64,000 bases of DNA from Heterodontus francisci (GCF_036365525.1 NC_090418.1:10850856-10914855), one strand, 5' to 3'. Positions 8,924-58,700 are shown, counted from the stretch's first letter. Notes: generated by a model from the letters alone, not told the origin. Numbers and translations: made by a program.

Positions 8924-11745
8924 TCACAATTGATTGAATGGAGTTTGCTTGTGTTTCCTGTACAGGAACAAGGCTATCAATGAAGCAGAGATCAGACAGA
9001 CAGCTGTCACAGTCAGGGCCACAATCAGGACCACCTCAGACTCCACACCTACAAAGCAATGAGAAACCAATGGTTAGTGAAGGAAACACTGAAGGGAAAA
9101 TGAAAACTAGCAGTCAGTCAACTCACCACCTGGAGACCTCTCCTGCAGCCTTCGCTCAACCTCATTCAGGGACCCAGTTGCCAGGTCAGTCACCTCAGTA
9201 TCCAGAATGACCAGGGGTCCAAGTGAGGCCTCACCCTCCCACTTCAATCCAGCTTCACTCTCTGCAATATCAAACATGCCAGTTAGAGGGGGTAAAGGGA
9301 GATCTCCCACATCTAGAGGATCAATGTCTTACCAGCTTCAGGTACAAGATCCCTCCTTCCTCTGGAAGGAAATCGGAACTCCCTTGTGGCACCACAGTTA
9401 CCCACATGGCAACAGGCACAAATGTCATTGTTGGATTCCTCCAATGGGGTCCAGCTAGACAAGAGAAACAGTTGATCAACCAGGTTGTCCATCACCTTTC
9501 ATACATGCGTGTGAAGAAAAACAAACTTACACATTCTGCATCTTTTGGAAAGTACAAGCTTTGTTCATGGAATCTCTCCGATCCACTGCAGCAACTTTTA
9601 GGTGACAGGTGATGAAAATCTGTGGGATAAATTTCAACACAAATTATTTAGTGACTCCCTCCCAACATGAAAAACCCAATGAATGAACCATATTCCTCTT
9701 ACCAAGGAACGTTCATCTCCAAAGAAGCGGAAAGCATCCAGGTCAAACCGCAGCTTGTCCAGCTCACGCTCGTCTCTTGGCAACACGAAGGTTGAGAAGG
9801 AGCCCTCAGCTTTGCTGTCCAGGAGGCAACTGGAGAAAGATTCAAAAAGGGACATGAAGTGAATAAAGTGAAGCCATTGAGATGGGAGCAGCTGGAGAAA
9901 GCAGAGAGCTCCTTACCCATTGTAGTCAATGATGCTGTATCTCGGGGTGGAATCCTTGTCTGGGCTCAATGTAGCTACACAGCGGTCAATGTAGAGCTTC
10001 AGGGGCATGTGGTTGGTCATTGAAACAGAGGCCTCAATGTGAATGAGGTCACCCAGGTAGTAGACAGTCGAGGTGCGCTCTGTAAGCCAGTCATCTGAAG
10101 TACAAGAGGACAAGGGTTGGAGACAGTGGGTACAACTCCCAGTGGGTGAGTACAGGAAATCACTTCCCATCCACCCATCACATACCATTCATTAGGCGCA
10201 GTGAGAATGACAGATGCCCTTCTCCAGACTTGGTGGAGCTGAATGGGATCCAGGTGGGCTTGATGGGGTTACTGCTCACATTGCCCTTCCTGGAAGGAGA
10301 GGAGAGATATTTTAGGACAACATGATAAAAACCAGCTCTAGATCATATCCACAGTCAAGTAAATATTCTCACCTAAAATAATGACACTCAATGGGAATGA
10401 CAGCTCCATTTGTTCTCACAATGACAGATCCATGATACTGGGGGGTGTGGTTCAGGTGGGTGGTGTAGACCAGGAAATCTCCAACCATCTGAAAGACAGA
10501 CATCAGGAAAGAAGAGAATGTTTGGCTAATGAGTTTAGAGGAATGAGGGAGGTTCTCAAACTGAGTTTGCTGGGTAAATACCAAGAGGCTATTCCTTTGA
10601 CTAGAACAAGGTCAGCTAATCATGCCATCGAATTTTTTGGACTTTCCAATCTCACTGGAAGTTGTGCTCAGTTGAGTACATTCAAAATAGAATAGTTCTT
10701 GGGCTAAAGTAAATCAAGCAACATGGGGACTGAGTGGGAAAGTGGAGTTAGTGTAGAATTTCAGCCACAATCTTATTAACTGAGGTCAGTCTCCAAGGCT
10801 CTACACACTGTGCTGTAGATTGTCCCACAGTTGGCCATTACCACCACAGATGTTAATGTGAGGAGAACAGGCAAGCATGAAGGACTGACCAAAAGCAAAG
10901 TGAATCAATGAAAGGACAGCTTCACTTAACAGCTAAAGGAAACACAAACTGGCAGTAATTTGGAAGTATTAACAGAAGGTTTGCCTTCATTTAATCCAAG
11001 CATTCTAATCACCAGGAGGCTCCCTTCAAATCATATTTAATTCTACAGTTTATTCACAAAAAGTCAGTTAGATTGAATTCAATATTCAGATTTTAACATT
11101 CATTCAATCTAAAAAAAACCCACAAGACAAAGCATACAGTAGGAAAAGCTTGGAAAAACCAAGTGAAGGATAAGACCAATGGGGTTGATAGTCAACACTG
11201 GATTAACCAGGTGACCTGATAAAACAAAGGACAATTGAATCAGGTTTAATGTTTACAAAACAAGCATCTCTTTATCAAGTATTAAAATGAAAAAAGAGGG
11301 GAACAATCTACATCAAGTTTATAACACAAGTTAAAGACATTACCTGCAATCTGCTGCCACACTCATGGAGCCCATAGTCAAAGAGGACAGTGTGGTTCTG
11401 AGAGTAGATCCTGGTCGGCCGACAACCTGCTGTCCCCAGGGTCAGGTCAGCAGCTTTAATCAGGTGCCTGGTTCCAAATAAATCCATCTGGACCCTGACC
11501 AGCAGGTTCTGCTCTCCACACTGCACCGTCACAGTCTGCAGTGGAGACACACTTCGACCCTCAGACACACGGAAATGGGAACCAAAGGGAGACCCAGTTG
11601 GAGGGACTCTCTGAGGCACAGGGGTGGCTTTTACTATTGTCCATGGAAACCTCTGGTCTCGAAACTGTTGCCAAGTATCAGAACAACAGACAACTCCAAC
11701 TAACACCAGCACTGGGAACAAACCCCTCATTACAAAATCCCCCAT
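8924..11745 (-). CDS. ZP3: Zona pellucida sperm-binding protein 3-like, copy 1 (9 exons, ~465 aa, intact)
   Basis: Exons 11745-11344, 10488-10373, 10289-10186, 10094-9917, 9829-9703, 9619-9531, 9454-9333, 9261-9127, 9048-8924; all GT-AG and in phase. Signal peptide, ZP-N Cys1-4, [15 protein letters not shown] Cys5-8, ICACC..NC subdomain, furin RGRR, EHP (ASLGPLVIL), TM helix, ending [10 protein letters not shown]. Confidence 0.93.
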
Positions 11746-11769
11746 GATACCAAACAACTCAACCATCCC

Positions 11770-11915
11770 TTCACCCACCAACCAGCTCCTTTTATACACA
11801 CAACCTGCAGTCACCTGACACCAATGATCCCAGAAGCAGCAACATTGAGCCAATTAACCAGCCCCAATCTCCACAATTTACACCCAATGACAGAACTCAT
11901 GGATTTATTGCCAGG
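11770..11915 (-). promoter_or_regulatory. ZP3 copy 1 proximal promoter (TATA, E-box, CCAAT boxes)
   Basis: TATAAAA at 11790-11796 (minus), CAGGTG just upstream, four CCAAT motifs; block conserved in all five copies. Confidence 0.7.
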
Positions 11916-11999
11916 AGACTCTTCCACACAGGGGTTTATTAAAGAATTCGCCCTGATCCAATGGGATTGTTGTTCTTGGTGATTGGCTGTCAGAAGTGC

Positions 12000-12670
12000 T
12001 TCACACTCAGAGTGTGGTTCCAAGGGACACTGCACGGATCAGGTGGAGTGGAAATGTCATCGGTCTCCATATAGTTGAAGCAAATTGATCCATCGCTGAA
12101 CTGGGAAATTTCCTTCTTTTTTCCTGCTGCACAGGACGCAGAGAGGGTTTCCTGTATAGGCCTCTTATACACACTTTCAGACTTCCTCCCCTTTGTCTCC
12201 CCTCCCAACACAATCTGCTGTTCTGTCTTGCTACCCTGCGGATACTGGTAGCTCCAGAAGAGGGCTCTTTCTGTGGGACCCGTCCCCTTGCACCATTGGG
12301 AATATGGTGTGAACATTACAGGAGTGGTTGCGTGCAACGGGCTTTCAAACATCCTCACAGACCCCCAGGCTGCCTGGGAGAAGTCTGTGGTTCGTGTTTG
12401 TTCTGAGTGTGTGAGACTTTCACTGCATTTCAGTCCCAGGTTCCTGAGCATTGGCCACCCTGTGAGGAGGAGAGAAGTGGACATGTCAGAGGATCCCCTT
12501 GTGGCGTTGCTCCTGGGCCTGGCCAAGGGGGCCATTAACAGGTCCGTCCAGCGCCCGGTCAAGTGGACCCGTCCCCCCGAGAGCTGCCCTCTTCCACGGC
12601 TACGACCATGCCCGAGTGCCCCTGGAGAGGCATGTCGGTACCCCTGAGGCTTTCCGCGACTGCTGGCACT
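12000..12670 (+). mobile_element. Tx1-clade LINE ORF2 3' fragment (zf-RVT region), degenerate
   Basis: GFLYRPLIHTF...VACN..LTDPQAA..ECVRL..LHFSPRFLSIGHPVRR..LVALLLGLAKGAINRS; copy at ~38880-39560. Confidence 0.7.
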
Positions 12671-12825
12671 TATAAGTTTCTTGGGGGAAGTGGAGACGAT
12701 GAATAATTTCAAAAGGAAATTGGGTGGGCACTTTCAGAGCTATGGGGATAGACCAAGGGAATGGGACTGACGGGGTTGCTCTTCAGAGAACAAGCATGCA
12801 CCCTATGGGCTGAATGGCCTCCTTC

Positions 12826-23379: not shown

Positions 23380-23600
23380 GAGCTGACATCTGTCAGGTGA
23401 CACTGGACCAACTCAGAGCCACTCCTATTGGTCCAAATAAAATAGGCCCTCCTGGCAATAAATCCATGAGTTCTGTCATTGGGTGTAAATTGTGGAGATT
23501 GGGGCTGGTTAATTGGCTCAATGTTGCTGCTTCTGGGATCATTGGTGTCAGGTGACTGCAGGTTGTGTGTATAAAAGGAGCTGGTTGGTGGGTGAAGGGA
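23380..23600 (+). promoter_or_regulatory. ZP3 copy 2 promoter
   Basis: Distal E-boxes CATCTG 23387-23392 and CAGGTG 23394-23399; ATTGG repeats; proximal CAGGTG 23549-23554; TATAAAA 23570-23576. Confidence 0.7.
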
Positions 23601-23620
23601 TGGTTGAGTTGTTTGGTATC

Positions 23621-26530
23621 ATGGGGGATTTTGTAATGAGGGGTTTGTTCCCAGTGCTGGTGTTAGTTGGAGTTGTCTGTTGCTCTGATACTTGGCAACA
23701 GTTTCGAGACCAGAGGTTTCCATGGAGAAGAGTAAAAGCCACCCCTGTGCCTCAGAGAGTCCCTCCAACTGGGCCTCCCTTTGGTTCCCATTTCCGTGTG
23801 TCTGTGGGTCGAAGTGTGTCTCCACTGCAGACTGTGACGGTGCAGTGTGGAGAGCAGAACCTGCTGGTCAGGGTCCAGATGGATTTATTTGGAACCAGGC
23901 ACCTGATTAAAGCTGTTGACCTGACCCTGGGGACAGCAGGTTGTTGGCCGACCAGGATCTACTCTCAGAACCACACTGTCCTCTTTGACTATGGGCTCCA
24001 TGAGTGTGGCAGTAGTTTGCAGGTAATGTTGACTCCTGTTCTAAGCTTGGTGTTGCTTGTTCCTCATTCTTCATTCCAATACTTGTTGAAATCTGTTCAA
24101 TGCCATTTTCCTACTTTATAAAACCTCAAGCTAGTTTTCAATTCTACACTGGACCTTGCTTCATCTGGTGTTTCCTGCACTCCCCAATGTTGATTGTTAA
24201 CACTGTTGGTCTTTAACTTTAATTGGTATTCCTCCTGACCTATCTTTCTGTAAACTGTAAATGTTCAGCTTTATTACTCATTTGGGTCATTGAGATTGCA
24301 TTTTGAGTTTGAAGTTTCAGTTTTACCTAATGAAGTTGGGTTTAAAATGAAATGGGACTAAAAATTGAGCTGTAGTATATGAAAGGGAAACTCTACATTT
24401 CCTACTTCCCCTGTGATTGGAACATATGGGGTTGTGGATTAAATGAAATCTGTCTGGCCAAATTACTACCAGCTTGTGGCTTTTTGTTATTGGTTAAATT
24501 GTCACATCTCGCTTTCTTGCTGACAATTGCTTTTCTTTCATGAGACTAGACATAAGCCCATGAATGGAGATCTCTGGCCACTGGGGCCTGTTTGGCTGTT
24601 CAGTGACACCATGGCTAAATTTCTACAGTTTACTGTCCTTTCTACCCAATCCCTTGTGTTGATTCCTCTTGTACCCAAAATCTTGCCTGTCTTGAATATA
24701 TCAAGTAGAATATCCCACTTGGTTGGAGAAACACCATTTGTTTACAATGCTGAAGACATTTCTTTGCTCTGACTTAAATGGCTGTCCCTTTGCCTGACTG
24801 TGATCCTAAAATCTAGACTCTCCCGCTGCAGGAAATGGTTTCCCAGCATCTAGCTTTTCATTCCCAGTAGAAATGCAATCTCAAAATTCCTTACTGAACT
24901 CTTAGCATAATGGTCTCCATTTCAGACCAGCTTGTCATTCCTTTTAGCTGATGTCTTTCAGATGGTTGGAGATTTCCTGGTCTACACCACCCACCTGAAC
25001 CACACCCCCCAGTATCATGGATCTGTCATTGTGAGAACAAATGGAGCTGTCATTCCCATTGAGTGTCATTATTTTAGGTGAGAATATTTACCTGATTGTA
25101 GATATGATCTAGAGCTGTATTTTTTTCTCAATTTGTCCCAAAATGACTCCCCTGTCCTTCCAGGAAGGGCAATGTGAGCAGTAACCCCATCAAGCCCACC
25201 TGGATCCCATTCAGCTCCACCAAGTCTGGAGAAGGGCATCTGTCATTCTCACTGCGCCTAATGAATGGTATGTGATGGGTGGATGGGGAGTGATTTCCTG
25301 TACTCACCCACTGGGAGTTGTACCCACTGTCTCTAACCCTTGTCCTCTTGTACTTCAGACGACTGGCTTACAGAGCGCACCTCGACTGTCTACTACCTGG
25401 GTGACCTCATTCACATTGAGGCCTCTGTTTCAATGACCAACCACATGCCCCTGAAGCTCTACATTGACCGCTGTGTAGCTACATTGAGCCCAGACAAGGA
25501 TTCCACCCCGAGATACAGCATCATTGACTACAATGGGTAAGGAGCTCTCTGCTTTCTCCAGCTGCTCCCATCTCAATGGCTTCACTTGATTCACTTCATG
25601 TCCCTTTTTTAAAATCTTTCTCCAGTTGCCTCCTGGACAGCAAAGCTGAGGACTCCTTTTCAACCTTCGTGTTGCCAAGAGACGAGCGTGAGCTGGACAA
25701 GCTCCGGTTTGACCTGGATGCTTTCCGCTTCTTTGGAGATGACCGTTCCTTGGTAAGAGGAAGTTGATCATTGGGGTCTCCATGTTGGGAGGGAGTCACT
25801 AAATTGTGTTGCAATGTCTCTCTCTCTCCCAGATTTTCATCACCTGTCACCTGAAAGTTGCTCCAGTGGATCGGAGAGATTCCATGAACAAAGCTTGTAC
25901 TTTCCAGAAGATGCAGAATGTGTAAGTTCCCTTTCCCTCCTTCAGGGGTGTGTTGTATGGGAATGTGATGGACAACCTGGTTGATCAACTGTTTCTCTTG
26001 TTTAGCTGGACCCCATTGGAGGAATCCAACAATGACATTTGTGCCTGTTGCCATGTGGGTAACTGTGGTGCCACAAGGGAGTTCCGATTTCCTTCCAGAG
26101 GAAGGAGGGATCTTGTACCTGAAGCTGGTAGGACTTTGATCCTCTAGATGTGGGAGGTCTCCCTTTACCCCCTCTAACTGGCATGTTTGATATTGCAGAG
26201 AGTGAAGCTGGATTGAAGTGGGAGGGTGAGGCCTCACTTGGACCCCTGGTCATTCTGGATACTGAGGTAACTGACCTGGCAACGGAGTCCTTGAATGAGG
26301 TTGAGCGAAGGCTGCAGGAGAGGTCTCCAGGTGGTGAGTTGGCTGACTGCTAGTTTCCATTTTCCCCTCAGTGTTTCCTTCACTAACCATTGGTTTTTCA
26401 TTGCTTTGTAGGTGTGGAGTCTGAGGTGGTCCTGATTGTGGCCCTGACTGTGACAGCTGTCTGTCTGATCTCTGCTTCATTGATCGCCTGTTTCCTGTAC
26501 AGGAAACACAAGCAAACTCTGATCAACTAG
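23621..26530 (+). CDS. ZP3: ZP3-like, copy 2 (9 exons, 463 aa, intact)
   Basis: Exons 23621-24022, 24962-25077, 25164-25267, 25359-25536, 25626-25752, 25833-25921, 26006-26127, 26199-26333, 26412-26530 (1392 nt); furin RGRR; TM; AATAAA at 26544-26549. Confidence 0.94.
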
Positions 26531-27637
26531 TTATCAAATCATCAATAAACAGATTACTTGTATCTTGTCTATGTTAATTCATTGGCCACTGGAGCCTGTT
26601 AGTTAAATGGGTCCATAGATCTAATGACTACAATTAACCTAAGCCCAGAACTACACCTCGTGAATCACCTACTGGCAGAGTTTTAAAAAAGTTAACTTGT
26701 GTTTGAAGGGGTTGTTCTTCAATTGCTAACTGCATTTCAATGCCAGACTCCTTTATTCCTCCTCCTGTCGAGGAGGGATGTGAACAGGTCTGAATCTTCT
26801 TGTGGAACTGCTATTAGATTTGGCCAGTTGGGGTTTACTCTAGTTGCTGCTTTCTGTTCAATGTCTATGCTCACCCCCCTGGAGAGCGCACATTCTTCTT
26901 TTGGGTCTTTAAGGTTTGCTGCAACCAATGGGCAGTAGAGGATCTGTCATTATACATATTTGATTTATGTAGGCATACTTTTTAATGTGACTTCATTACC
27001 AATTTTCATTTGGCCAGTTAACTAAGTGAAGGTTATTGTGGGAGCAACAAATTTCAGTTTTAATAGCTGTGGGAGCCATCTTGGCTGAAGTATATGGGAC
27101 TAAACTCTGAACTTTGAGCTCACAAATGCCATTTCTAACGATATGGCCTTCCAGTGGACAGTCTATCTTCAAATAGAGGGTGGGTGGGAGTCACAAGCAT
27201 ATCACCTGACTGGCAGAATCTAATCTGGTGCCTGAGCTTCTGTCTTGTTTGCTAGTTTGCAGGTAGAAGCAGGAAGCTACAAAGGCCCATTGAGGTAATG
27301 AACAAAACTATGGCAGATGATCCATGCAGGAAGTGACAGACTTTAGACACAGGCAGGAGCCGAGACAAAAACAAGTAGTTCGTTCTAGTAAAGGAGCAAA
27401 GACTTTAGTGATCCGAGATAATGGAATGTTGGTCCCTCTGGGAGGGATGGTAAAGGCCTTCAGTTTTGAAGAATATTGGTCAACTGGATTTGAATTTTTG
27501 AGCATGGAACATTAAGTGTAAATTTGATTTGAGGTTCAATCTGATTTAACCACACTGGGGCTTAAATTAAAGTCACATGTCCTCAATGGAGGTTTGAGGG
27601 GTAATCTGCTCAAGGTGTTTCATGTCAGAAGGATTTG

Positions 27638-29329: not shown

Positions 29330-29720
29330 TAGTAGATTTCATTGTAAGTGAAGTTCAGCCTCAGTTGCCAGGGAGCGAGATGGAGTCGTTGTCTAGGTAA
29401 TGGAGTTTGGGGCCGGGACTGACAATGGCATTGGTTCCTCTGATATTTAGTTGGGGGAACTATCTACTCATGCAGCCCTGTGTGTCAGATAAGCAGTCGG
29501 ATAATTTAGAGATAGCGGAGGGGCTGAGTGGTAATGAGGTAGAGCTGGGTGTATTCAGCATATGTGTGGAAACGGACTGTTTTCAGATGTCACCAGGGGA
29601 GCATACAGATAAGAAATAAAAGGGGCCAAGGATAGATTCTGAGGACACACTAGAGGTAATGGTTCTGGACTGGGGAGAGAAGCTACTGCAGGTGATTCTT
29701 GGGCTTGGACTTGATAGATA
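29330..29720 (-). mobile_element. Degenerate L2-like LINE fragment
   Basis: Paralogous to ~57760-58120, which runs into a recognisable L2 RT fragment. Confidence 0.45.
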
Positions 29721-38613: not shown

Positions 38614-38879
38614 GATACCAAACAACTCAACCATCCCTTCACCCACCAACCAGCTCCTTTTATACACACAACCTGCAGTCACCTGACACCAATGATCCCA
38701 GAAGCAGCAACATTGAACCAATTAACCAGCTCCAATCTCCACAATTTACACCCAATGACAGAACCCATGGATTTATTGGCAGGAGGCTCTTCCACACAGG
38801 GGTTTATTAAAGAATTCGCCCTGATCCAATGGGATTGTTGTTCTTGGTGATTGGCTGTGGGAAGTGCTTCACACTCAGA

Positions 38880-39560: not shown

Positions 39561-40319
39561 TATAACTTGGCAGGTTTCTTGGGTGAAGTGGAGACGATGA
39601 ATAATTTCAAAAGGAAATTGGATGGGCACTTTCAGAGCTATCGGGATAGCCCAGGGAATGGGACTGGGTTGCTCTACAGAGAGCCAGCATGCACCCTATG
39701 GGCTGAATGGCCCCCTTCTGTGCCATTATGACTCTTAAAAGTACTTCAACAATGAGTACCAGATTATAAAGGGGTACATGTGATTTCAGTGATTCTGATT
39801 GGTGATATCATCCTCTAAAAATTAGTAAAAAGCAGTAGCAGTTGCAACCCCTGAAAAGGGGGGCTCCTTAACATTTAGCTACATTTTAACCCCACTCTGC
39901 TAATCTTTCGATGCCTGGATGAGAGGGGTGGGGGTTTGCAAGTTGAAGGATCTTCTTGTCTGCCCTAAAACAGCAATTTGTAGATCCAGGACTGGTGGGC
40001 CCCATGGGGGCTAGGCGGGAGAGGGGAGGGAGTCTCCCTGCCTGCCTCTGTTCTGCAGTTTTACCTGTGCTTGGATGTCCCTGGAGAGGGGGAATGCCTC
40101 CAATGACTGGTGGGCACTGCAAGGTGTGGAGTGTCTTGCAGACATCAAGAATAACATTCTGATTAAGGTGAGAGGAAATCCTTATGATTTTGCTCAAATG
40201 TGATGCTTATTTTGGCAAATTTTCAGTCTGATTGAACCATCTCATATTTGTGCCCGGTGAGGTATACTTGTTGTGATGACCATAGAGTAACCATATAACC
40301 AAGAAAATGCCCATTCAGA

Positions 40320-40530
40320 TAATAATCCCATTGGATCAGGGCAAATTCTTTAATGAGTCCCTGTGTGGAGAGGACCCACCCAGCAATAAATCCATGAGTT
40401 CTGTCATTGGGTGGAAATTGTGGAGATTGGGGCTGGTTAATTGGCTCAATGTTGCTGCTTCTGGGATCATTGGTGTCAGGTGACTGCAGGTTGTGTGTAT
40501 AAAAGGAGCTGGTTGGTGGGTGAAGGGATG
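40320..40530 (+). promoter_or_regulatory. ZP3 copy 4 promoter (divergent from copy 3)
   Basis: TATAAAA 40498-40504, CAGGTG E-box and ATTGG repeats; upstream part matches copies 1 and 3. Confidence 0.7.
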
Positions 40531-40548
40531 GTTGAGTTGTTTGGTATC

Positions 40549-43500
40549 ATGGGGGATTTTGTAATGAGGGGTTTGTTCCCAGTGCTGGTGTTAGTTGGAG
40601 TTGTCTGTTGCTCTGATACTTGGCAACAGTTTCGAGACCAGAGGTTTCCATGGAGAAGAGTAAAAGCCACCCCTGTGCCTCAGAGAGTCTCTCCAACTGG
40701 GTCTCCCTTTGGTTCCCACTTCCGTGTGTCTGAGGGCCGAAGTGTGTCTCCACTGCAGACTGTGACGGTGCAGTGTGGAGAGCAGAACCTGCTGGTCAGG
40801 GTCCAGATGGATTTATTTGGAACCAGGCACCTGATTAAAGCTGCTGACCTGACCCTGGGGACAGCAGGTTGTCGGCTGACCAGGATCTACTCTCAGAACC
40901 ACACTGTCCTCTTTGACTATGGGCTCCATGAGTGTGGCAGCAGATTGCAGGTAATGAGTCCTTGACTCTTGTTCTAAGTCTGGTGTGTAAGTTTTCCACT
41001 CTCTCCTTTTCAATACTTAGTGAAATGTTATTATTAAATCTGGTCTTGTCCCTTTATAAAACCTCAAACTTTATTTCAATTAATATATTGTGTATTGATG
41101 TAGGTATTGTAACCTTGATATTGGTTTGGTACCTTTTTTTTCCCTGGTTCCTTCAAGCTTTTCATTGTGTATTGTTTTGTGGCTTCTCAACTTGAATTCA
41201 AGTTTTAAGTAAGTTAATCTGACTCTTTTATTTGAGCAAAAATTTGGATTAAATGAGATGTGGTGCTCTTGAAGGGAGCTCCATGCTTAATTTCCCTATG
41301 ATCATACTTGGATTAAATGAAGTGCAAAACTAGCCTGTTCATTGTTCCTAATTTTGAACAAGAGATTTCTTCCTTTATTTAAAGTGAAGCCATTCTTTCA
41401 TTCAGTCACACTTCTACTCATTATGCTCTCCAGGTTAACTGCTGAAGTAGCACAATTTGGATTTATGAAATCAGTCTGTTAAACTACTGCAGTGTGATTG
41501 GCCATTCAATAACATTGTTTGTTCTTTGCGTAAAAATCTCTCGCTTTCATATGCCCAAATAAGCATAATCATCTCCAGTGTAAGATTTTCAACTGAATGA
41601 ATCTATTTCCTTGGTCCTAAATAGCTGACCCTAGTTCTACATTTTCTAGCCAGATGAAGTTTCTTTTCAACTTACTGTCAAGTCCTGTAAGTTTTTCTCC
41701 AACAATCTGAATCATCTGAATGTTAATTTCTTAACTTGATTTCTTTCAGATGGCTGGAGATTTCCTGGTCTACACCACCCACCTCCACCACACCCCCCAG
41801 TATCATGGATCTGTCATTGTGAGAACAAATGGAGCTGTCATTCCCATTGAGTGTCATTATTTTAGGTAAGTTGAGTGAATTTAGTTTTCAATCTAATTCA
41901 AGTTCTGATATCCTAGCATAACTCTCCTATCCTTCCAGGAAGGGCAATGTGAGCAGTAACCCCATCAAGCCCACCTGGATCCCATTCAGCTCCACCAAGT
42001 CTGGAGAAGGGCATCTGTCATTCTCACTGCGCCTAATGAATGGTATGTGATGGGTGGATGGGGAGTGATTTCCTGTACTCACCCACTGGGAGTTGTACCC
42101 ACTGTCTCCAACCCTTGTCCTCTTGTATTTCAGATGACTGGCTTACAGAGCGCACCTCGACTGTCTACTACCTGGGTGACCTCATTCACATTGAGGCCTC
42201 TGTTTCAATGACCAACCACATGCCCCTGAAGCTCTACATTGACCGCTGTGTAGCTACATTGAGCCCAGACAAGGATTCCACCCCGAGATACAGCATCATT
42301 GACTACAATGGGTAAGGAGCTCTCTGCTTTCTCCAGCTGCTCCCATCTCCATGGCTTCACTTGATTCCCTTCATGTCCCTCTTTGAATCTTTCTCCAGTT
42401 GCCTCCTGGACAGCAAAGCTGAGGACTCCTTTTCAACCTTCGTGTTGCCAAGAGACGAGCGTGAGCTGGACAAGATCCAGTTTGACCTGGATGCTTTCCG
42501 CTTCTTTGGAGATGACCGTTCCTTGGTAAGAGGAAGCTGATCATTACGCAGTACTGCACATTCAGGTCAACTTGTCCATGCTGACTACATGTCTCTCAAA
42601 CTGCCCTCCTCTCTCCTAACATGAGCTCCTATTCCTTCCTTCAAGTGGTTCTTTAGATTCCCTTAAGTAGCATCTGTGATTTTTCCTTAACTACTTTGTG
42701 GCATTGAGTTCCACTCTATATAAGGATAAAGCTTTCCTGAATTTGTGATTTGGTATTTAGTGACTTATTAATGACCCCTAGTTCTGGTCTCCAAATGCAG
42801 CATCTTGTCTACATCTACCCTTTTTCATTGAAGACTTCTTGGGTCACTGTAGCCTTTTGAGTCCCAGTCTGTTAATTCTTTCCTAATGGATGTAAGCTTG
42901 GTTTTGGTCTGATCCTAAGTGGGGTTTTTGGCACTGTCCAGTTCTTCACCCTTTCCCTAATTCAGAACCTGAACTGTTCCTCGTATTCCCTCTATTAAGA
43001 AAATGAAGGTTAATGTTGGACAGAGAACAACCCTTCTCTGTAGAGGTGATGTAACAGTCATATTGTAATGTGCTTCAGAAGAAACTAGCAGCACCAAGAA
43101 TGCTAGCTCGAGAGGCTTGTGTTTAGTTGACCTTATCCAGACACTCAATCTTGATAACCTAACTATGCCACTACAACAATACACAACACTTCATAGTTTA
43201 ACAAAAGGTTCTAGACCACTTCTTTGCTTACCAATTCTAACTCTTTGACTTTTTTTTTTAATTGGCCTTATTAACTTCCACTAAGTGGTCTGTTCCCAGT
43301 CCCTCAGCCACTTGTAACCTGGGAAGATTGGCCTCAGGATAAAATGTATGTCCTTGTGCTTAATGATACTGGAGCAATTGCACATCCATTTTGCAAGTTT
43401 TTCATCTTGTACGTTGTTATATTCTCCTCCAACTATAACATAAATTTGTCTGCAAATTTTACAAATGCAGTCTATTCGAAGTTCCAGTCACTTGTACAAA

Positions 43501-44352
43501 GTCCCAGCATCAGTCCTTGAACCTGCTTTCCTTCATATTTCAATTTAATTTTTTAATTTTGTCCATTCTGCTTAACAAATTAACAGGTTAACAAATTGGC
43601 TACTTGCCGCAATGTTGGGAGGGAGTCAATAAATTTGTGTTGAATGTGTCCTCAGATTTTCATCACCTGTCACCTGAAAGTTGCTCCAGTGGATCGGAGA
43701 GATTCCATGAACAAAGCTTGTACTTTCCAGAAGATGCAGAATGTGTAAGTTGACTTTCTGACTCCTTCAGGGTGTTGTATGGAGAAGTGATTAACAACCT
43801 GGTTGATCAATTGTTTCTTGTTTAGCTGGACCCCATTGGAGCAATCCAACAATGACATTTGTGCCTGTTGCCATGTGGGTAACTGTGGTGCCACAAGGGA
43901 GTTCCGATTTCCTTCCAAAGGAAGGAGGGATCTTGTACCTGAAGCTGGTAGGACATTGATCCTCTAGATGTGGGAGGTCTCCCTTTACCCCCTCTAACTG
44001 GCATGTTTGATATTGCAGAGAGTGAAGCTGGATTGAAGTGGGAGGGTGAGGCCTCACTTGGACCCCTGGTCATTCTGGATAATGAGGTGACTGACATGGC
44101 AACGGAGTCCTTGAATGAGGTTGAGCGAAGGCTGCAGGCGAGGTCTCCAGGTGGTGAGTTGGCTGACTGCTAGTTTCCATTTTTCCCCTCAGTGTTTCCT
44201 TCACTAACCATTGGTTTCTCATTGCTTTTGTAGGTGTGGAGTCTGAGGTGGTCCTAATTGTGGCCCTGACTGTGACAGCTCTCTGTCTGATCTCTGCTTC
44301 ATTGATCGCCTTGTTCCTGTACAGGAAACACAAGCAAACTCTGATCAACTAG
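40549..44352 (+). CDS. ZP3: ZP3-like, copy 4 (9 exons, 463 aa; furin site KGRR; enlarged intron 5)
   Basis: Exons 40549-40950, 41750-41865, 41939-42042, 42134-42311, 42399-42525, 43656-43744, 43826-43947, 44019-44153, 44234-44352. Confidence 0.92.
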
Positions 44353-44851
44353 TTATCAAATGATCAATAAAGCAGTAATTGTATCCTGTGCCTAGTAACT
44401 GATTTGTCACTTTATATTCTGTGGGCTGGACAGTGTAAAATACTGTTTCGCACTTGGTAATGTTCCGTCAGTCATACAACACAGAAACAGGCCCTTTGGC
44501 CCATCCTGTCTGTGCCAGCCATCAAGAACTGACCTATCAAGGAAACTAGTGGAAAAATGGCTGCTAATAGTTTACCTAGGAGATGTTTGGATGGTGTCTA
44601 TGGCAACTGCACAGGCCTCACATGCAGTTCAGTGAAGTCTAGTTGTGTGCAGTTCTCCTGAATTAGTGCAGACTGGATCCAAACTATTCTTTTTAGTTTT
44701 GTGTAGCTGCTATACTCGTACTAGAAATTCCCAAACTTCTAGTTTGGGGTCAACTGTTAAAAGCAACTTCTATGACACTCAAATGACCCCAGGTTATCGC
44801 AGGAAGTGACTTTCAGCTGACTTTCCAGGAATGCTTCCAATGGAATCCCAT

Positions 44852-44875
44852 CCCCCCCCCCCCCCCCCCCCCCCC
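44852..44875. repeat. Poly-C tract (~24 nt)
   Basis: Seen directly. Confidence 0.9.
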
Positions 44876-46084
44876 TTCAACAGGTAGGATCATTGATTCA
44901 CTAGGTCTAGTATCTTGGAGCTGGCTGCATGGACTAGGGTAGGAGTGAGCTTGTAGCATTTCACCTGCAGGGTAACTGGGAGCTCAGTGCTTGGATCTCA
45001 ATTCCCTAGGGTGAAGGGTACAGCTGAACCCTTGTGAATCAAATGATGGCAGAACATAGGATTTGAACTGGTTGGATTCTTAGAGGGAGGAGGAAGGAAA
45101 GGAGCTGCTAACTCAGTGCTTTGCAGCCTCCAAGGGAGGGGAAAAATATAGTTTTACCTCCTGCACAGAGTTCTTTACAGCCCTTGCTCGTCTGTCTGGG
45201 TTTGGACTCAGAACAAGGTGAGCTTTTAATGGACCCCCTCCCAATCCCACCAGTCCCGAGTGGGGCCTCTATGCTTGGTGGGAGAACAGAAGGATATCTG
45301 CATTCTTGTACTGACTAAAATGGCTGAGACCCCCCATAATGAATGAAGACAAAGAATATAATTTGGGATGGGATTTGCAACTTTTTTTCCCCCTCACTCC
45401 AGCACACGGTGGTTGAAGCTCAGACAATGTGGCCTACAGGTGGGCTGACTTTTTCTCTCTGGCTTCCTCTTACCCAGTCTGACCACTGTTTACTTTGATA
45501 CTTTTTTTTTATTATTTTTGATGTTTACAGCTGGCCTCAGTTATACTTTCCAAAGAAAGTAACTTGGAAAGTATGACCTTTTAAAATCTGAAATAAGACT
45601 TCCTTTTCTAGGTCCAGTTTAAAAAATAACCCAGATCCATATTACTTTGTACAGCAGTCTTGCTGAAATAAACAGTGATGTCTAACAGCTGTGTTTTCAC
45701 CCCAAGCACAGAACCAATTGTCTCCTTGTCACATTATTCCTGACTCCATAGTCTCAGCTGAGACTGTCATTTTTAGTAATTTTTAACTGTTTCCCTGTGC
45801 CTCCAGTCTGAGGGTTTTCATCAAATGGACTCTTGTTGCTCCTAGCACTGCTCCAGGTGTGAACTGTTCTATTATGGGCTGTTTACTGCATCATGCTAAA
45901 GCAATCTCCCAGTGCATGTCACCAACTCCAAGTCACAGGCCATAACTAGGCCCCAAAGTACACATGTAACTTGCACTGGGATCACAATAGCAGACTGGTG
46001 TAAAATTGTAAATATTGAATCTCCTGTTTAAATTAAATAAAACCAATCGACACACACCTGGTTTGAGTCATGACTTCACGGAAG

Positions 46085-52714: not shown

Positions 52715-52935
52715 GGAGCTAACATCTGTCAGGTGACACTGGAGAAACTCAGAGTCACTCCTATTGGTCCAAATAAAATAGGCCCTCCAACCAATACATC
52801 CATGAGTTCTGTCATTGGGTGTAAATTGTGGAGATTGGGGCTGGTTAATTGGCTCAATGTTGCTGCTTCTGGGATCATTGGTGTCAGGTGACTGCAGGTT
52901 GTGTGTATAAAAGGAGCTGGTTGGTGGGTGAAGGG
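52715..52935 (+). promoter_or_regulatory. ZP3 copy 5 promoter
   Basis: CATCTG 52723-52728, CAGGTG 52730-52735, CAGGTG 52885-52890, TATAAAA 52906-52912. Confidence 0.7.
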
Positions 52936-52956
52936 ATGGTTGAGTTGTTGGGTATC

Positions 52957-55816
52957 ATGGGGGATTTTGTAATGAGGGGATTGTTCCCAGTGCTGGTGTT
53001 AGTTGGAGTTGTCTGTTGCTCTGATACTTGGCAACAGTTTCGAGACCAGAGGTTTCCATGGAGAAGAGTAAAAGCCACCCCTGTGCCTCAGAGAGTCCCT
53101 CCAACTGGGCCTCCCTTTGGTTCCCATTTCCGTGTGTCTGAGGGTCGAAGTGTGTCTCCACTGCAGACTGTGACGGTGCAGTGTGGAGAGCAGAACCTGC
53201 TGGTCAGGGTCCAGATGGATTTATTTGGAACCAGGCACCTGATTAAAGCTGCTGACCTGACCCTGGGGACAGCAGGTTGTCTGCCGACCAGGATCTACTC
53301 TCAGAACCACACTGTCCTCTTTGACTATGGGCTCCATGAGTGTGGCAGCAGATTGCAGGTAATGTTGACTCTTGTTCTAAGCTTGGTGGGGAACAATCTA
53401 CCCACCCTTTCCAACACTTGGTGAAATGTTATTGATGGAGAGGTGATGTCTGTCTCCTGCTTTTTAAATCCTTAATCTTAATTTCAACTGTGCAGTGTAC
53501 CTTTGCTTTTTCTGGTATCTTTTCTCTACCAACTTTATTCAAGATGAATGGGGTTGTTTCTACTTGCTATCTCAATGTTTTTCTTTTGTATATGTCTTGT
53601 GGATTTTGTTATTGCCCCTCATCTGGTTTATTCAACTTTTGTTAGCATATTCAATTCTAATAGCTGTGTTAAAGATGGGAAATGGAATAAGATTTGAGTT
53701 AGTGCATGAAAGGGACACTCTACATTTCCTAATTTCCCTGTCAAAATACAGATGCTTGGATTAAATTATATGAAACTGATTTGTTCATTGTATCAATTGA
53801 TTTTGACTTAAAATAAAACTGTTCTTTCATCTGAGTCACTCTTAATTTTTGTTTGTAATCTCTTTACTTAAACTGTAAAGACTGTAAGCAGATTGGGGGG
53901 AGTTGGTGCTAGGCCCCTGGAGCACGCTTGGCCATTCAATAACATCTGAGCTAATTTTTTGACATTAACTATGCTTTTCCACCCAATCTCCATGTCCCTT
54001 GATTCCTTTTGCCCCAAAACCTGCCTGTCTTTAATACATACAACAGTTGAGCATAAAATTCCACAGGGTTGGAAAGATGCCAGAAGTTTTCAACCTGCTG
54101 AAGAAATTTCTTTGACCCCTTGCCTGACATTGACTTAGTCTTGACACTCCAACTAGGGAAAATGGAACCCCCAGCATCTACCCTGACATTCCCTGTAGGA
54201 CTTATTTCCTTTCACTGAGCAGAATGATCTTCAATTCCTTTCCCTGATGTCTTTCAGATGGCTGGAGATTTCCTGGTCTACACTACCCACCTGAACCACA
54301 CCCCCCAGTATCATGGATCTGTCATTGTGAGAACGAATGGAGCTGTCATTCCCATTGAGTGTCATTATTTTAGGTAAGTTGAGTGAATTTAGTTTTCAAT
54401 CTAATTCAAGTTCTGATGTTATCCTAGCATAACTCTCCTATCCTTCCAGGAAGGGCAATGTGAGCAGTAATCCCATCAAGCCCACCTGGATCCCATTCAG
54501 CTCCACCAAGTCTGGAGAAGGGCATCTGTCATTCTCACTGCGCCTAATGAATGGTATGTGATGGGTGGATGGGGAGTGATTTCCTGTACTCACCCACTGG
54601 GAGTTGTACCCACTGTCTCTAACCCTTGTCCTCTTGTACTTCAGATGACTGGCTTACAGAGCGCACCTCGACTGTCTACTACCTGGGTGACCTCATTCAC
54701 ATTGAGGCCTCTGTTTTAACGACCAACCACATGCCCCTGAAGCTCTACGTTGACCGCTGTGTAGCTACATTGAGCCCAGACAAGGATTCCACCCCGAGAT
54801 ACAGCATCATTGACTACAATGGGTAAGGAGCTCTCTGCTTTCTCCAGCTGCTCCCATCTCAGTGGCTTCACTTGATTCACTTCATGTCCCTTTTTTGAAT
54901 CTTTCTCCAGTTGCCTCCTGGACAGCAAAGCTGAGGACTCCTTTTCAACCTTCGTGTTGCCTAGAGACGAGCGTGAGCTGGACAAGCTCCGGTTTGACCT
55001 GGATGCTTTCCGCTTCTTTGGAGATGACCTTTCCTTGGTAAGAGGAAGCTGATCATTGGGGTCTCTACATTGGGAGGGAGTCACTAAATTAATGACTTGT
55101 GTTGAATTTATCTGTCAGATTTTCATCACCTGTCACCTGAAAGTTGCTCCAGTGGATCGGAGAGATTCCATGAACAAAGCTTGTACTTTCCAGAAGATGC
55201 AGAATGTGTAAGTTCCCACACTAGAATTTTCTAGTGAGGAGAAAAGATGATTCACAACCTGGTTGATCAGCTGTTTCTCTCTCGTTTAGTTGGACCCCAT
55301 TGGAGCAATCCAACAATGACATTTGTGCCTGTTGCCATGTGGGTAACTGTGGTGCCACAAGGGAGTTCTGATTTTCTTCCAGAGGCAGGAGGGATCTCTT
55401 ACCTGAAGCTGGTAGGACATTGATCCTCTAGATGTGGGAGATCTCCCTTTATCCCCACTAACTGGCATGTTTGATATTGCAGGGAGTGAAGCTGGATTGA
55501 AGTGGGAGGGTGAGGCCTCACTTGGACCCCTGGTCATTCTAGATACTGAGGTGACTGACCTGGCAATGGAGTCCCTGAATGAGGTTGATCGAAGGCTGCA
55601 GGAGAGGTCTCCAGGTGGTGAGTTGGCTGACTGCTAGTTTCCATTTTCCCCCTCAGTGTTTCCTTCACTAACCATTGGTTTCTCATTGCTTTTGTAGGTG
55701 TGGAGTCTGAGGTGGTCCTGATTGTGGCCCTGACTGTGACAGCTGTCTGTCTGATCTCTGCTTCATTGATCGCCTTGTTTCTGTACAGGAAACACAAGCA
55801 AACTCTGATCAACTAG
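52957..55816 (+). pseudogene. ZP3: ZP3-like, copy 5, with premature TGA in exon 7 (truncated isoform or young pseudogene)
   Basis: Exons 52957-53358, 54258-54373, 54450-54553, 54645-54822, 54911-55037, 55119-55207, 55290-55411, 55483-55617, 55698-55816; CGA>TGA at 55369-55371; splice sites and frame otherwise intact. Confidence 0.85.
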
Positions 55817-55944
55817 TTATCAAATGATCAATAAAAGTGATTACTTGTATCTTGGAGCTGATTTGTCTGTCTTCCATCTGGAATAGCTCTATATAAGTAC
55901 AGAACTCTGCTTCCTGAATCTTAGTGGCAGTTGGTCTAATTCAC

Positions 55945-56372
55945 CAGATGTTGCCTGGGCTGGAGCATTTCAGCTATGAAGAGACTGAGGCTAGGGTTGT
56001 TTCTCTTGGAGTAGAGAAGGATGAAGGGGACCATGATTGAGGTCTACAACATTGAGGGGCATTGATAGGTTAGATAGGAGGGAACTTATTTTCCCTTGGT
56101 GGAGGGGTCAATAACCAGGGGGCCTAGATTTAAGATGAGGGCATTTGAGGTACTATATTTTCAGAGGGTGGTTAGAATCTGGAATACACTGCCTGAAGGG
56201 ATGGTCGAGGCAGAAACCCTCAACATTGAACTATTTAGATGAGCACTGGAAATGCCATAGCCTACAAGGTGATGGGCCAAGTAATGGAAAATGGGACTAG
56301 AATAGTTAGGTGCCTGATGGCTGGCTCAGACATGATGGGCTGAAGGGCCTGTTTCTGTGCTGTATGGCTCTA
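55945..56372 (+). mobile_element. CR1 LINE 3' fragment
   Basis: ttcaccagatgttgcctgggctggag..agctatga; tail gggctgaagggcctgtttctgtgctgtat. Confidence 0.75.
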
Positions 56373-57759
56373 ATTGTAGTGAAATTAACACTCCTTGAAG
56401 TGGCAGCTCCTGCAATTCAGTCTTGATCTCCAGTGTGCAGGAGGTGTATTTGTAGATGTAGGGACTTTCTTCTTCGGCTGGATGGAGCTAGTGTTTTTAT
56501 TTGGGCTGCTTCCTTCATGGTTTTTTTTTTTTGCACCCCAGCCTCCCTGGAGAGGGGGCAAACTGTCTATTGATAAATTTTAAAGTTTGCTGCAACCATT
56601 GGGCACAAGTGTAGCCCACAGTGAACATGATTTTAATTTGGTCAGTATAATTTGCCCTTAAATGTTTTAATCACCAATTCTGAGCATCCAGTAACAAAGC
56701 TGTCTATTGTGGGGACTAGTATAGTTCCAACTAAGTGATCTGGGAGCTAGTGAGAGGTATCCAAAAAAGATTGACTGTTTAGTCACTAAGGCTGTCTAGA
56801 TCTCCCATTGATTTTGAGGGCTTTCAATAATTTGTCTTGACTTTATTGGGGGGAATGAGCAGTGGGGATCAAGAGTAGATCATCCAGTTGGCAGAATGTG
56901 GCCTGTTCTGGTCCTTGGGAATCTGATTCTGGTGCCTGAATTTCTTTGCCTTGGATAGACAACTCTCTTGCACAAGTTTACAGATGAGAGCAGAAAGTTG
57001 CCTCGTGCATAAATTGTTTGAGGAGTGGGCAAAACAGTCATCAATACAGGAATTTGGACTCTTGCAAGAAAAAAATATTGTCTAGAAGAACTAAGATCTG
57101 AGTCAACAGCAATCTAGGATATGATGCCTCCTCTCAATGGGAGGAATGTGACATTTCAGTTTTCCAGACTCTCATCTGGATTTCTGTAGAGTTTTGAACA
57201 TCAAAGGATCAACTGGTTCTGAGGGGATTAACCAGACTGAATAGTGGAGCTTGAAGCAAGTTCTTGTGTAGAAGACTGAGGGATGATCTGATTGAGGTGC
57301 TTTAGTGTTGGTAGAGTAGGTGTCAGGAAGCTGATTCCAAGGGGAATTGAGAATAAGGGAACCTGAACTTGAGTCAGGCCATTGAGGAGTGAAATTGGAA
57401 CATTTAATCACACAAGGTAGGACAAATCTTAATCTCCTTCCTCCTGCTTTGCAACCTCTTGGAGATTAAGTACATGTCCATTGTCATCTCAGTACCATTA
57501 ACATCAGTTTCAATCTGCAGGTCATGGGTCTATCTGACCTAGTGGGGCTGAATGGCCTCCTCCATTTCCCAAGTTACTCCCATGGTGCTGTGGTCATTGA
57601 GTCCCAAAAGGCTCCAATTTCAGTCAATCTTTCCCATTGGGAGCCAATTGCCCTAAAACTAAATGGGGTTGAAATTGGGTGGAGTTACAAACTTGATCCG
57701 AAAGGGAATTTCTCAAACTGGTCTGAAGACTCTAGTACCGGGAAGAAATAAATTTTTCT

Positions 57760-58700
57760 TAGTAGATTGTATTGTAAGTCTAGTTCAGCCTCAGCTGCCA
57801 GTGAGCAGGGTGGAGTTGCTGGTTCATGAATGGAATTTGAGGCAGGGACTGGTGGCAATGGAATTGGTTTCTCCCACTTTTAATTGGAGGAAATTTCAGC
57901 TCATCTGGTATTAGATATCATAAGCATTTGTCAAATTTATATAGTTGAAGGGTGGTGGTGAGGTAGAGCTGGATATTGTCCACATAGATGTGGAACTAGA
58001 CTTTTGGACAATCCTGGCGAGGCAAGGTGGGGAGGAGGGGTGTTGCTGAGGATAAATCCTTGGCATACACCAGAAGTAATGGTGCTGAGGCAGGTAGAGA
58101 ATCCATTGCAGGTGATTGTCTAGCTATACCTGAATAGATAGGAATGGACTCTTCTTGCCTGGGTCCAATCAGTAGGATAATGGAGAGATGTTGGGTGTGG
58201 TCATCCATGGCAAAGGCTGTGCATGAGTAAAGGAGGATAAGGAATAGATTCCTAGAATTGCAACATTCCGTTGACTTTGATTTAAAAGCTGTTTTAGTGC
58301 AGTGGTCAGGATAGAAACCTGTTTGGAGACATTCAAACATGGAGTTCTAGGAAAGATGGGCACATGTGGGGAGGTGACATGGTTGAGGATGTTGGAGAGA
58401 AAAGGGAGGTTAGTAATGGAGGTAGATTACAAGAACCAAGAGGTCAGGCTTTTTTAGGGGGTGGGGTGATGATTTCAGATCTGAAAGGGAGGGGACTGTA
58501 CTGGAGAAGGCAGTATTATCTGTTAACATGGGGGGGTGGGGGGGAGAAAGGACAGGAGGCTGGGTGGTCAGTATAGAGGGGGTAGGGTTGAGGAACAGAG
58601 GTGGGTGGCATAGATGAGTAGTTGGGGGTGGGTCTGTGTGGCAGGGTGATTAATAAATCAGCATAAGATGCAACTTCCAGGTGTGTATATATTTGGTTCT
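57760..58700 (-). mobile_element. L2 LINE RT fragment, degenerate
   Basis: FECLQTGFYPDHCTKTA...LILLYSCTAFAMDDH resembles the L2 QSGF..HSTETA...LLDLSAAFDTVDH motif. Confidence 0.65.

What the first reader, a model, noticed from the sequence alone, without database searches (positions are those of the whole stretch)
8924..57960. Exon-focused concerted evolution: near-identical genes inside anciently diverged flanks
Seen: flanks define two old lineages. X is copies 1, 3 and 4 (shared upstream cccattggatcagggc block; 44400-45300 weakly matches the reverse of 7700-8880). Y is copies 2 and 5 (shared acatctgtcaggtgacactgg upstream; 26700-29720 weakly matches 56390-58100). These flanks and intron 1 are only patchily alignable. 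Yet the last ~140 bp of promoter, all exons, and introns 3, 4, 7 and 8 are nearly identical across all five. Near-identity of those introns is hard to explain by protein-level selection. Inference: recurrent non-allelic gene conversion, possibly helped by inverted pairing, homogenises the genes.
Basis: partly seen in the sequence, partly recalled or inferred. Interest (0 to 1): 0.78.

Follow-up and report, generated by a model that had tools for sequence, protein, structure and literature searches.

The report
Shark egg-coat genes copy each other
Five neighbouring egg-coat (ZP3) genes of a horn shark are about 97% alike in their promoters, exons and four short introns although their long first intron and flanks diverged long ago, the footprint of repeated gene conversion, a process already known from other gene families.

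Summary
Confirmed. The window holds five 9-exon ZP3-type egg-coat genes of a horn shark (three match Heterodontus francisci RefSeq proteins at 0-1 mismatches). Promoter (160 bp), exons and introns 3, 4, 7, 8 differ by 1.8-3.0% among all five; intron 1 is 0.57-0.91 substitutions/site apart except copies 1/3, a recent segmental duplicate. Flank homology exists only within X (1,3,4) and Y (2,5). Intron-1 and intron-2 trees reject each other (AU about 0.001); intron 2 is identical in copies 4 and 5 but 30/82 different in the recent pair 1/3. Short-read contigs collapse the core at 6-9x flank depth, so it is no assembly artefact. Best reading: recurrent interlocus gene conversion, kept alive where selection preserves similarity, escaped by long or indel-rich sequence; the same kind as Arabidopsis halleri HMA4 and yeast duplicates. 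Not supported: help from inverted pairing. Open residue: short introns 2, 5, 6 escaped while equally short 3, 4, 7, 8 did not. Other sharks also carry species-clustered ZP3 paralogues. My searches found no paper on this for shark ZP3. New member of a known kind.

The parts
8911..11745 (-). ZP3-like gene, copy 1 (ATG to polyA signal), intact frame; exons 11745-11344, 10488-10373, 10289-10186, 10094-9917, 9829-9703, 9619-9531, 9454-9333, 9261-9130, 9048-8911
   Evidence: 1 mismatch in 425 aa to RefSeq P0002; Pfam ZP-N and ZP-C
11746..11905 (-). Homogenised proximal promoter of copy 1 (four ATTGG, one CAGGTG, TATAAA at -51 from ATG)
23461..23620 (+). Homogenised proximal promoter of copy 2 (0 of 160 differences from copy 1)
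23621..26549 (+). ZP3-like gene, copy 2, intact frame; lineage Y flanks
   Evidence: 1 mismatch in 430 aa to P0092; exon 7-8 joined in an RNA-guess contig (X6 record 26)
24023..24961 (+). Intron 1 of copy 2: escaped region, single-copy read depth (16.5)
25164..25752 (+). Exon 3-intron 3-exon 4-intron 4-exon 5 block: longest homogenised block; collapses into one contig at depth 145
35782..38613 (-). ZP3-like gene, copy 3, intact frame; recent segmental duplicate of copy 1 but with a different intron 2
   Evidence: 30 of 82 differences in intron 2 vs 37 of 848 in intron 1, Fisher p 1e-16
38614..38773 (-). Homogenised proximal promoter of copy 3
40389..40548 (+). Homogenised proximal promoter of copy 4 (head-to-head with copy 3)
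40549..44371 (+). ZP3-like gene, copy 4, intact frame; X-type flanks, intron 2 identical to copy 5, exon-9 tail like 2 and 5
   Evidence: 0 mismatches to P0003
42526..43655 (+). Intron 5 of copy 4, enlarged to 1130 bp by about 1.05 kb with no match elsewhere in the window; exon 6 beside it is still identical to copies 2 and 5
52797..52956 (+). Homogenised proximal promoter of copy 5
52957..55835 (+). ZP3-like gene, copy 5; premature TGA at 55369-55371 in exon 7; most private changes (26 vs 12-18); probable pseudogene
7456..12825 (.). Segmental duplication unit around copy 1, 94% identical to 34327-39718
   Evidence: profile
34327..39718 (.). Segmental duplication unit around copy 3
26700..29720 (+). 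Downstream flank of copy 2, about 70-74% alike in local alignments to 56390-58100 (copy 5): lineage Y
44400..46050 (+). Downstream flank of copy 4, patchily homologous to the downstream flanks of copies 1 and 3: lineage X

Best explanation
An old tandem array of ZP3 egg-coat genes undergoes concerted evolution by recurrent interlocus gene conversion with short tracts. Shown: four deeply diverged locus scaffolds (intron 1, flanks) carry near-identical promoters, exons, synonymous sites and four introns, and segments have been swapped between loci after the latest duplication. Inferred: conversion needs local similarity; purifying selection on the protein and on the 160-bp promoter keeps those stretches similar enough to go on converting, tracts carry along short introns that have few indels (3, 4, 7, 8), while flanks and the 0.8-0.9 kb intron 1 crossed the divergence threshold and escaped. 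Introns 2, 5, 6 are AT-richer and indel-rich, act as partial barriers and are only occasionally replaced whole. Inferred, weaker: selection for a large dose of one uniform filament subunit in the oocyte favours keeping many interchangeable copies.
For: Core 1.8-3.0% vs intron 1 0.57-0.91 subst/site inside the same genes; synonymous sites 2.2-6.4% with dN/dS 0.26-0.83, so the protein is not frozen; intron 2 tree 12|45 and intron 1 tree 13|25 reject each other (AU 0.0012 and 0.00015); intron 2 identical in 4 and 5 (0 of 73; run test Bonferroni p 0.003) but 30 of 82 different in the recent pair 1/3; informative sites cluster by pattern (63 sites outside intron 1, permutation p 5e-5); introns 3,4,7,8 are closer in pairs 2-3 (3 of 329) and 3-5 (4 of 329) than in the recent duplicates 1-3 (8 of 329); converted introns are GC-richer than intron 1 (0.45-0.48 vs 0.34-0.39, Fisher p 8e-6 to 0.02 per copy) while private core changes are AT-biased (47 S>W vs 24 W>S), as GC-biased conversion would give; short-read depth 105-145 in the core vs 12-17 in intron 1 and flanks; paralogues group by species across sharks (14 label changes, minimum 12, shuffled 47.6); a toy similarity-dependent conversion model gives flanks/intron 1 at 0.3-0.45 with promoter and synonymous sites at 0.00-0.06 for a range of settings.
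Against: Inside the core alone there is no significant tract or clustering signal (0 of 10 pairs after Bonferroni; clustering p 0.16): the core is star-like. No orthologous genomic loci of other sharks could be fetched, so locus age is relative only. With uniform settings the toy model gave the sharp 4-low/3-high split of short introns in 0 of 78 runs; it needed a built-in fourfold indel excess in introns 2, 5, 6 (4 of 44), and with low conversion rates everything diverged (all 9 settings). Cross-species protein sets were drawn from 90%-identity clusters, which biases within-species distances low; species-clustered trees also arise from independent expansions. Non-reciprocity was not shown, so double unequal crossovers are not excluded for single tracts.
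Confidence: 0.85

Rival explanations
1. Recent whole-gene duplications (birth and death) with very fast turnover of intron 1 and flanks.
For: Copies 1 and 3 are such a duplication (94% over 5.4 kb); ZP3/ZP4 tandem amplification is reported in catfish and zebrafish (passages); the region is rich in LINE copies.
Against: In the 1/3 pair intron 1 differs by only 4.4%, close to synonymous 3.5%, so intron 1 is not fast; the intron-1 copies are still homologous (z 8-66), i.e. aged in place, not replaced; a duplication cannot copy exons 1 and 2 without the intron between them.
Confidence: 0.03
2. Purifying selection on the DNA or RNA sequence itself holds exons, promoter and introns 3, 4, 7, 8 constant (regulatory or RNA elements), with no exchange between copies.
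For: The homogenised zone ends at functional borders (about -163 and the polyA signal); the toy model does not by itself single out introns 3,4,7,8.
Against: The protein differs by 8-20% between shark genera but 2.6% (median) among Heterodontus copies; no Rfam family at the curated score and no unusual folding in any short intron (z -1.2 to +1.0); selection does not swap intron 2 between loci. It may still contribute to which introns stay convertible.
Confidence: 0.04
3. RNA- or cDNA-templated conversion in oocytes: transcripts, some incompletely spliced, are copied back (LINE reverse transcriptase), homogenising exons and slowly spliced introns only.
For: Exon 6 (89 bp) is identical in copies 2, 4, 5 between two diverged introns, even beside a 1-kb insertion; similarity fades at the polyA signal; LINE reverse transcriptases are all around; germ-line expression is expected for ZP3 (recalled).
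Against: The 110 bp upstream of the TATA box are 97-100% identical and should not be in the transcript; no copy has lost an intron; short DNA tracts reproduce a uniform exon 6 in the toy model.
Confidence: 0.04
4. Assembly or polishing artefact: reads from several paralogues were merged and homogenised the exons.
For: No raw long reads were examined; the contigs laid may come from the sample the window was built from.
Against: Independent short-read contigs collapse the core at 6-9x depth while a single-depth contig spans intron 1 of copy 2 into both exons; each copy has 12-26 private core changes; a second organism holds a copy-2-like contig (X5 record 18); other sharks show the same near-identical sets.
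Confidence: 0.02
5. Conversion is driven mainly by fold-back pairing of inverted copies.
For: Copies lie -,+,-,+,+; promoter and exon 2 of the inverted pair 1/2 are identical and their intron 2 is of one type.
Against: Inverted pairs are not closer (2.57% vs 2.16%); the identical intron 2 is between same-orientation copies 4 and 5; at least 18 H. francisci proteins lie on the same contig, so donors may lie outside the window.
Confidence: 0.08

Closest known systems
Arabidopsis halleri HMA4 tandem triplicate (bioRxiv 10.1101/2025.10.29.685298; abstract and sections 7, 13 read)
   Same: Interlocus conversion homogenises CDS and short introns; long introns escape and date the duplication; mosaic divergence along the gene.
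   Different: There long introns differ by 5-6% and all short introns behave alike; here intron 1 is near saturation, the proximal promoter is converted too, and three of seven short introns have escaped.
Yeast whole-genome-duplication pairs under concerted evolution (Fawcett and Innan, PMC3924837; passages)
   Same: Conversion confined to coding region, non-coding homology nearly gone; explained by purifying selection keeping similarity that licenses conversion; linked to dosage.
   Different: Dispersed pairs with few introns and diverged regulatory regions; here a tandem multi-exon vertebrate array whose promoter and four introns are included.
Silkmoth chorion (eggshell) locus (PMC4639761; passages; localized conversion of early chorion genes is recalled, not read)
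   Same: High-dosage egg-coat structural genes in a tandem cluster, head-to-head pairs, gene conversion, pseudogenes proposed as donors.
   Different: Unrelated proteins, two-exon genes, follicle-cell expression.
Protocadherin cluster conversion (PMC2764143; passages)
   Same: Segment-restricted conversion in an old vertebrate tandem array, read from low synonymous divergence.
   Different: Confined to some ectodomains within one large exon; reported as limited in elephant shark and coelacanth, whereas this shark array is strongly homogenised.
Amplified fish ZP3/ZP4 clusters (catfish PMC13704971, zebrafish in PMC6262864; passages)
   Same: Same gene family, tandem amplification, species-clustered trees, dosage argument.
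   Different: Read there as species-specific duplication; the words conversion and concerted occur 0 times in either main text.
Primate red/green opsin genes (in PMC3924837; passages)
   Same: Long-lived conversion between tandem paralogues with exon/intron mosaic.
   Different: Opposite polarity: introns homogenised, selected exons kept apart.

Membership tests
ZP3 (ZPC) egg-coat proteins | ZP-N plus ZP-C module | tested here: met
   Pfam PF23344 in exon 1 and PF00100 in exon 4 above curated cut-offs
ZP3 (ZPC) egg-coat proteins | Closest solved relatives are ZP3, including the cysteine-rich ZP-C end | tested here: met
   P0003 vs PDB: 3 sequences matched, all ZP3; best 3NK3 E 4e-104 over residues 72-360
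ZP3 (ZPC) egg-coat proteins | Signal peptide, basic cleavage site after the module, C-terminal membrane segment | tested here: met
   By inspection of the translations (hydrophobic N-terminus, R/K-G-R-R, hydrophobic C-terminal stretch); no predictor was run; copy 5 stops just before the cleavage site
ZP3 (ZPC) egg-coat proteins | Expression in ovary and incorporation into the egg coat | not testable with these tools
   One run guessed to be RNA holds a contig joining exons 7 and 8; tissue not on record
ZP3 subfamily ZP3.1 / ZP3.2 / ZP3.3 (PMC6262864) | Clade and synteny assignment | not tested
   No reference set or flanking genes in the window
Concerted evolution by interlocus gene conversion | Divergence non-uniform along the duplicated unit, including neutral sites | tested here: met
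Concerted evolution by interlocus gene conversion | Incongruent trees between neighbouring segments | tested here: met
   AU tests over all 15 topologies for 6 partitions: intron 2 vs intron 1 reject each other; introns 5, 6, exon 9 and the core do not reject the intron-1 tree
Concerted evolution by interlocus gene conversion | Paralogues more alike than orthologues of loci that predate speciation | tested here: inconclusive
   Proteins group by species (57 of 72 nearest neighbours in the same species) but locus orthology across species is not established; organism B differs by 8 letters in 161 in copy-2 intron 1, more than paralogous introns 3,4,7,8 differ, a thin sample
Concerted evolution by interlocus gene conversion | Polymorphisms shared between paralogues in a population; non-reciprocal transfer | not testable with these tools
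   One haplotype; no phased population data
Concerted evolution by interlocus gene conversion | GC enrichment of converted tracts (expectation recalled) | tested here: inconclusive
   Direction fits but copies are not independent and the contrast with introns 2,5,6 is significant in only 2 of 5 copies

The most novel reading that the evidence does not exclude
The ZP3 array is an ancient fixture of shark genomes: the same locus scaffolds (intron 1, flanks) exist across genera while each species keeps its coding parts, promoter and a fixed subset of short introns uniform by conversion. Species-clustered ZP3 trees read as recent expansions would then hide loci of order 10^8 years, new egg-coat variants could sweep a whole array within a species, and the same introns (2, 5, 6) would act as conserved conversion barriers, giving an intron-scale readout of the similarity threshold in a slow-mutating vertebrate.
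Probability: 0.35. Interest if true: 0.62.

Novelty: new member of a known kind. Interest (0 to 1): 0.42.

Why it matters
It is an unusually clean vertebrate case of long-lived, gene-body-limited conversion with an internal clock (the 1/3 duplication) and sharp borders at the promoter edge and polyA signal. It warns that near-identical shark ZP3 paralogues cannot be dated from coding sequence and that 'species-specific expansion' may be wrong for egg-coat arrays. The split between converted and escaped introns of equal length is a testable handle on what stops a conversion tract. The mechanism itself is not new.

Tried and rejected
No whole genome is held; metagenome scan found no relative (28 pattern matches, 0 confirmed), so no cross-species DNA alignment was possible. 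No RNA holder listed; this says nothing on expression. Earlier scan notes: nothing by place or words. Run tests within the core: 0 of 10 pairs significant after correction. Inverted-pairing effect: not seen. Conserved RNA in the converted introns: one sub-threshold Rfam hit (E 0.17, exon 7 region) and no folding signal. Absolute dating with the epaulette-shark pedigree rate (7e-10 per generation, PMC10587355 passages) gives about 4-6e8 generations for intron 1, which is implausible, so only relative ages are given. Toy model: first parameter set had conversion too low and all 9 settings diverged; uniform settings did not give the sharp intron split (loose criterion 1 of 62 and 8 of 78; strict 0 of 78). 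Sliding-window table crashed and was replaced by the partition tables. The careful protein tree did not finish; the quick tree and a FastTree were used. Literature searches listed no paper on conversion in shark ZP3 arrays; one search gave nothing usable on promoter motifs, so the labels CCAAT box, E-box and TATA box are recalled. The library lacks most subscription papers, and no supplements were read.
Full report
What is there. Self-comparison of the window shows five copies of one gene and one larger duplication. Each copy has nine exons of the same lengths, with ATG at 11745(-), 23621(+), 38613(-), 40549(+) and 52957(+). The product has ZP-N and ZP-C domains, and the only three solved relatives are ZP3 proteins. 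Copies 4, 1 and 2 match RefSeq 'ZP3-like' proteins of the horn shark Heterodontus francisci at 0, 1 and 1 mismatches; 18 such proteins (isoforms may be among them) lie on one contig, so the array extends beyond the window. Copy 5 has a premature TGA at 55369-55371, just before the basic cleavage site, and the most private changes (26 vs 12-18). My exon-8 donor is probably 3 nt too early: RefSeq models of this and another shark have one more glycine there. This does not affect the counts materially.

Over the 10 pairs, the 160 bp before the ATG differ at 0-5 sites, exons at 24-47 of 1408, and introns 3, 4, 7, 8 at 3-11 of about 330; pooled core 1.8-3.0%. Synonymous differences are 2.2-6.4% and dN/dS 0.26-0.83. 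Intron 1 (799-939 bp) is still homologous between all copies (z 8-66 against block shuffles) but its tree distances are 0.57-0.91, except 0.045 for copies 1/3 (the alignment is gap-rich, so these are rough). Flanks align above the shuffle maximum only for 1-3, 1-4, 3-4 and 2-5; the six X-Y pairs are at null on both sides. The intron-1 tree contains the X/Y split (13|25 best; the next trees rejected at AU 0.02). Copy 4 is as distant from 1/3 as from 5, so there are four old scaffolds; 1/3 is a recent segmental duplication (94% over 5.4 kb). Introns 2, 5 and 6, at 73-88 bp (bar a 1-kb insertion in copy 4) as short as 3, 4, 7, 8, differ by 16-31% and carry many gaps.

Not an assembly artefact. 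Short-read contigs of organism A (X1, X3; one sample, possibly the source of the window) cover intron 1 of copy 2 and the flanks at depth 12-17, with one contig running from exon 1 through intron 1 into exon 2. The exon 3-5 block and the exon 6-8 block collapse at depth 145 and 105. A second organism (X5) holds a 1132-nt contig over the end of intron 1 to intron 6 of copy 2 (57 other letters, 21 gap letters) and a 161-nt piece of intron 1 with 8 other letters. A copy-2-like scaffold thus seems older than that species split; the sample is thin and may be collapsed. One run guessed to be RNA has a contig joining exons 7 and 8. I laid 4 of the 24 listed runs, on 23000-40000 only.

Direct evidence for exchange between loci. 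Intron 2 gives the tree 12|45 and rejects the intron-1 tree (AU 0.0012); intron 1 rejects 12|45 (AU 0.00015). Copies 4 and 5, from different flank lineages, have 0 of 73 differences in intron 2, while the recent duplicates 1 and 3 have 30 of 82 against 37 of 848 in intron 1 (Fisher p 1e-16). So intron 2 of one of them was replaced after the duplication. Outside intron 1, 63 informative sites cluster by pattern (p 5e-5). A run test is significant after correction for 2 of 10 pairs on the whole gene (4-5, 1-2) and for 0 of 10 in the core alone, which is star-like. Introns 5, 6, exon 9 and the core do not reject the intron-1 topology. Old-lineage pairs 2-3 and 3-5 are closer in introns 3, 4, 7, 8 (3 and 4 of 329) than the recent pair 1-3 (8 of 329), so homogenisation across lineages went on until recently. 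Converted introns are GC-richer than intron 1 and private changes are AT-biased (47 vs 24), which fits GC-biased conversion but is weak.

Other sharks. In a tree of the ZP module (75 of 81 rows kept, 6 dropped for short or gapped cover; the 76 database rows were hand-picked from 119 available) labels change 14 times, with a minimum of 12 and a shuffled mean of 47.6. Median distance within H. francisci is 2.6%, within Heptranchias 3.4%, within S. canicula 3.0%, against 8-20% from H. francisci to other genera; 57 of 72 nearest neighbours are conspecific and 8 of the 15 exceptions are between the two Scyliorhinus species. The sets come partly from 90%-identity clusters, which biases this, three window copies duplicate RefSeq rows, and independent expansions would look alike. 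So this shows generality of the near-identical arrays, not the age of the loci.

Mechanism. Most likely (0.85) similarity-dependent interlocus conversion. Selection keeps exons and the proximal promoter (four ATTGG, one CAGGTG, TATAAA; their functions are recalled) alike enough to pair. Short tracts reset synonymous sites and indel-poor introns; long or indel-rich sequence drifts past the threshold. A toy simulation with the real exon-intron layout reproduces flanks and intron 1 at 0.3-0.45 with promoter and synonymous sites near 0.00-0.06, including isolated exons 2 and 6, for many settings, but fails entirely when conversion is too slow. It does not give the sharp 4-low/3-high split of short introns under uniform rates (0 of 78 strict); a built-in fourfold indel excess in introns 2, 5, 6 brings the means close (4 of 44 strict). 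Those introns are AT-richer (0.35-0.41 vs 0.43-0.51), so unequal indel load is my reading, but it is not shown. Inverted pairing is not supported (2.57% vs 2.16%). Selection alone, RNA templating, recent duplication and artefact are each unlikely for the reasons given under rivals; the converted sequence upstream of the TATA box and the absence of intron loss weigh against an RNA template.

Comparison and verdict. The pattern is that of A. halleri HMA4, where long introns escape conversion while CDS and short introns do not (sections read), and of yeast duplicates where conversion is confined to coding regions (passages); silkmoth chorion genes are an egg-coat parallel (passages). Two ZP surveys describe tandem arrays as species-specific duplications without mentioning conversion (word counts and passages), and searches listed no paper on shark ZP3 conversion; the library is incomplete and supplements were not read. 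Differences from the known cases are the depth of the contrast, the converted promoter and the split among equally short introns. New member of a known kind; interest 0.42.

Noticed in passing
window:55369-55371 (+): Premature TGA in exon 7 of copy 5, four codons before the basic cleavage site; exon 7 of this copy is 5.7-7.4% from the others. No RefSeq protein seen matches copy 5 closely (13-15 mismatches). Not checked on reads.
   Followed up: partly
window:1-6024 vs 16050-22399: Blocks 91-98% identical in inverted orientation on both sides of copy 1; LINE-type (reverse transcriptase and endonuclease hits) with a roughly 72-bp tandem repeat that recurs at 31000-31900 and 48800-49360. Could be young insertions of one family or an inverted duplication.
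   Followed up: partly
window:12771-15900 (+): Long LINE copy (GDSL-like ORF1 hit below cut-off, reverse transcriptase E 1e-37) starting where the 1/3 duplication unit ends.
   Followed up: no
window:42551-43600: About 1.05 kb extra sequence in intron 5 of copy 4 with no match in the window; exon 6 next to it is still identical to copies 2 and 5.
   Followed up: partly
window:38614-40548: Copies 3 and 4 are head-to-head, 1.9 kb from ATG to ATG, each with its own converted promoter.
   Followed up: no
protein P0004: A ZP3 protein filed under Salmonella enterica (1415-nt contig) is 88% identical to these copies and groups with basking-shark sequences: a probable contaminant or mislabelled record.
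   Followed up: partly
proteins P0019, P0047, P0063, P0065 vs P0037, P0041, P0042, P0057, P0066: Chiloscyllium punctatum paralogues from different contigs fall in two clades, each with a C. plagiosum protein: homogenisation may act within but not between clusters.
   Followed up: partly
window:25864-26294: A contig that includes intron 6 of copy 2 has depth 105, suggesting that this intron-6 type is shared by several loci outside the window (depth is a mean over the contig).
   Followed up: no
RefSeq models P0003, P0092: The models place the exon 7/8 junction differently and lose several residues that an RNA-guess contig and other sharks keep; many array members have odd N-termini.
   Followed up: partly
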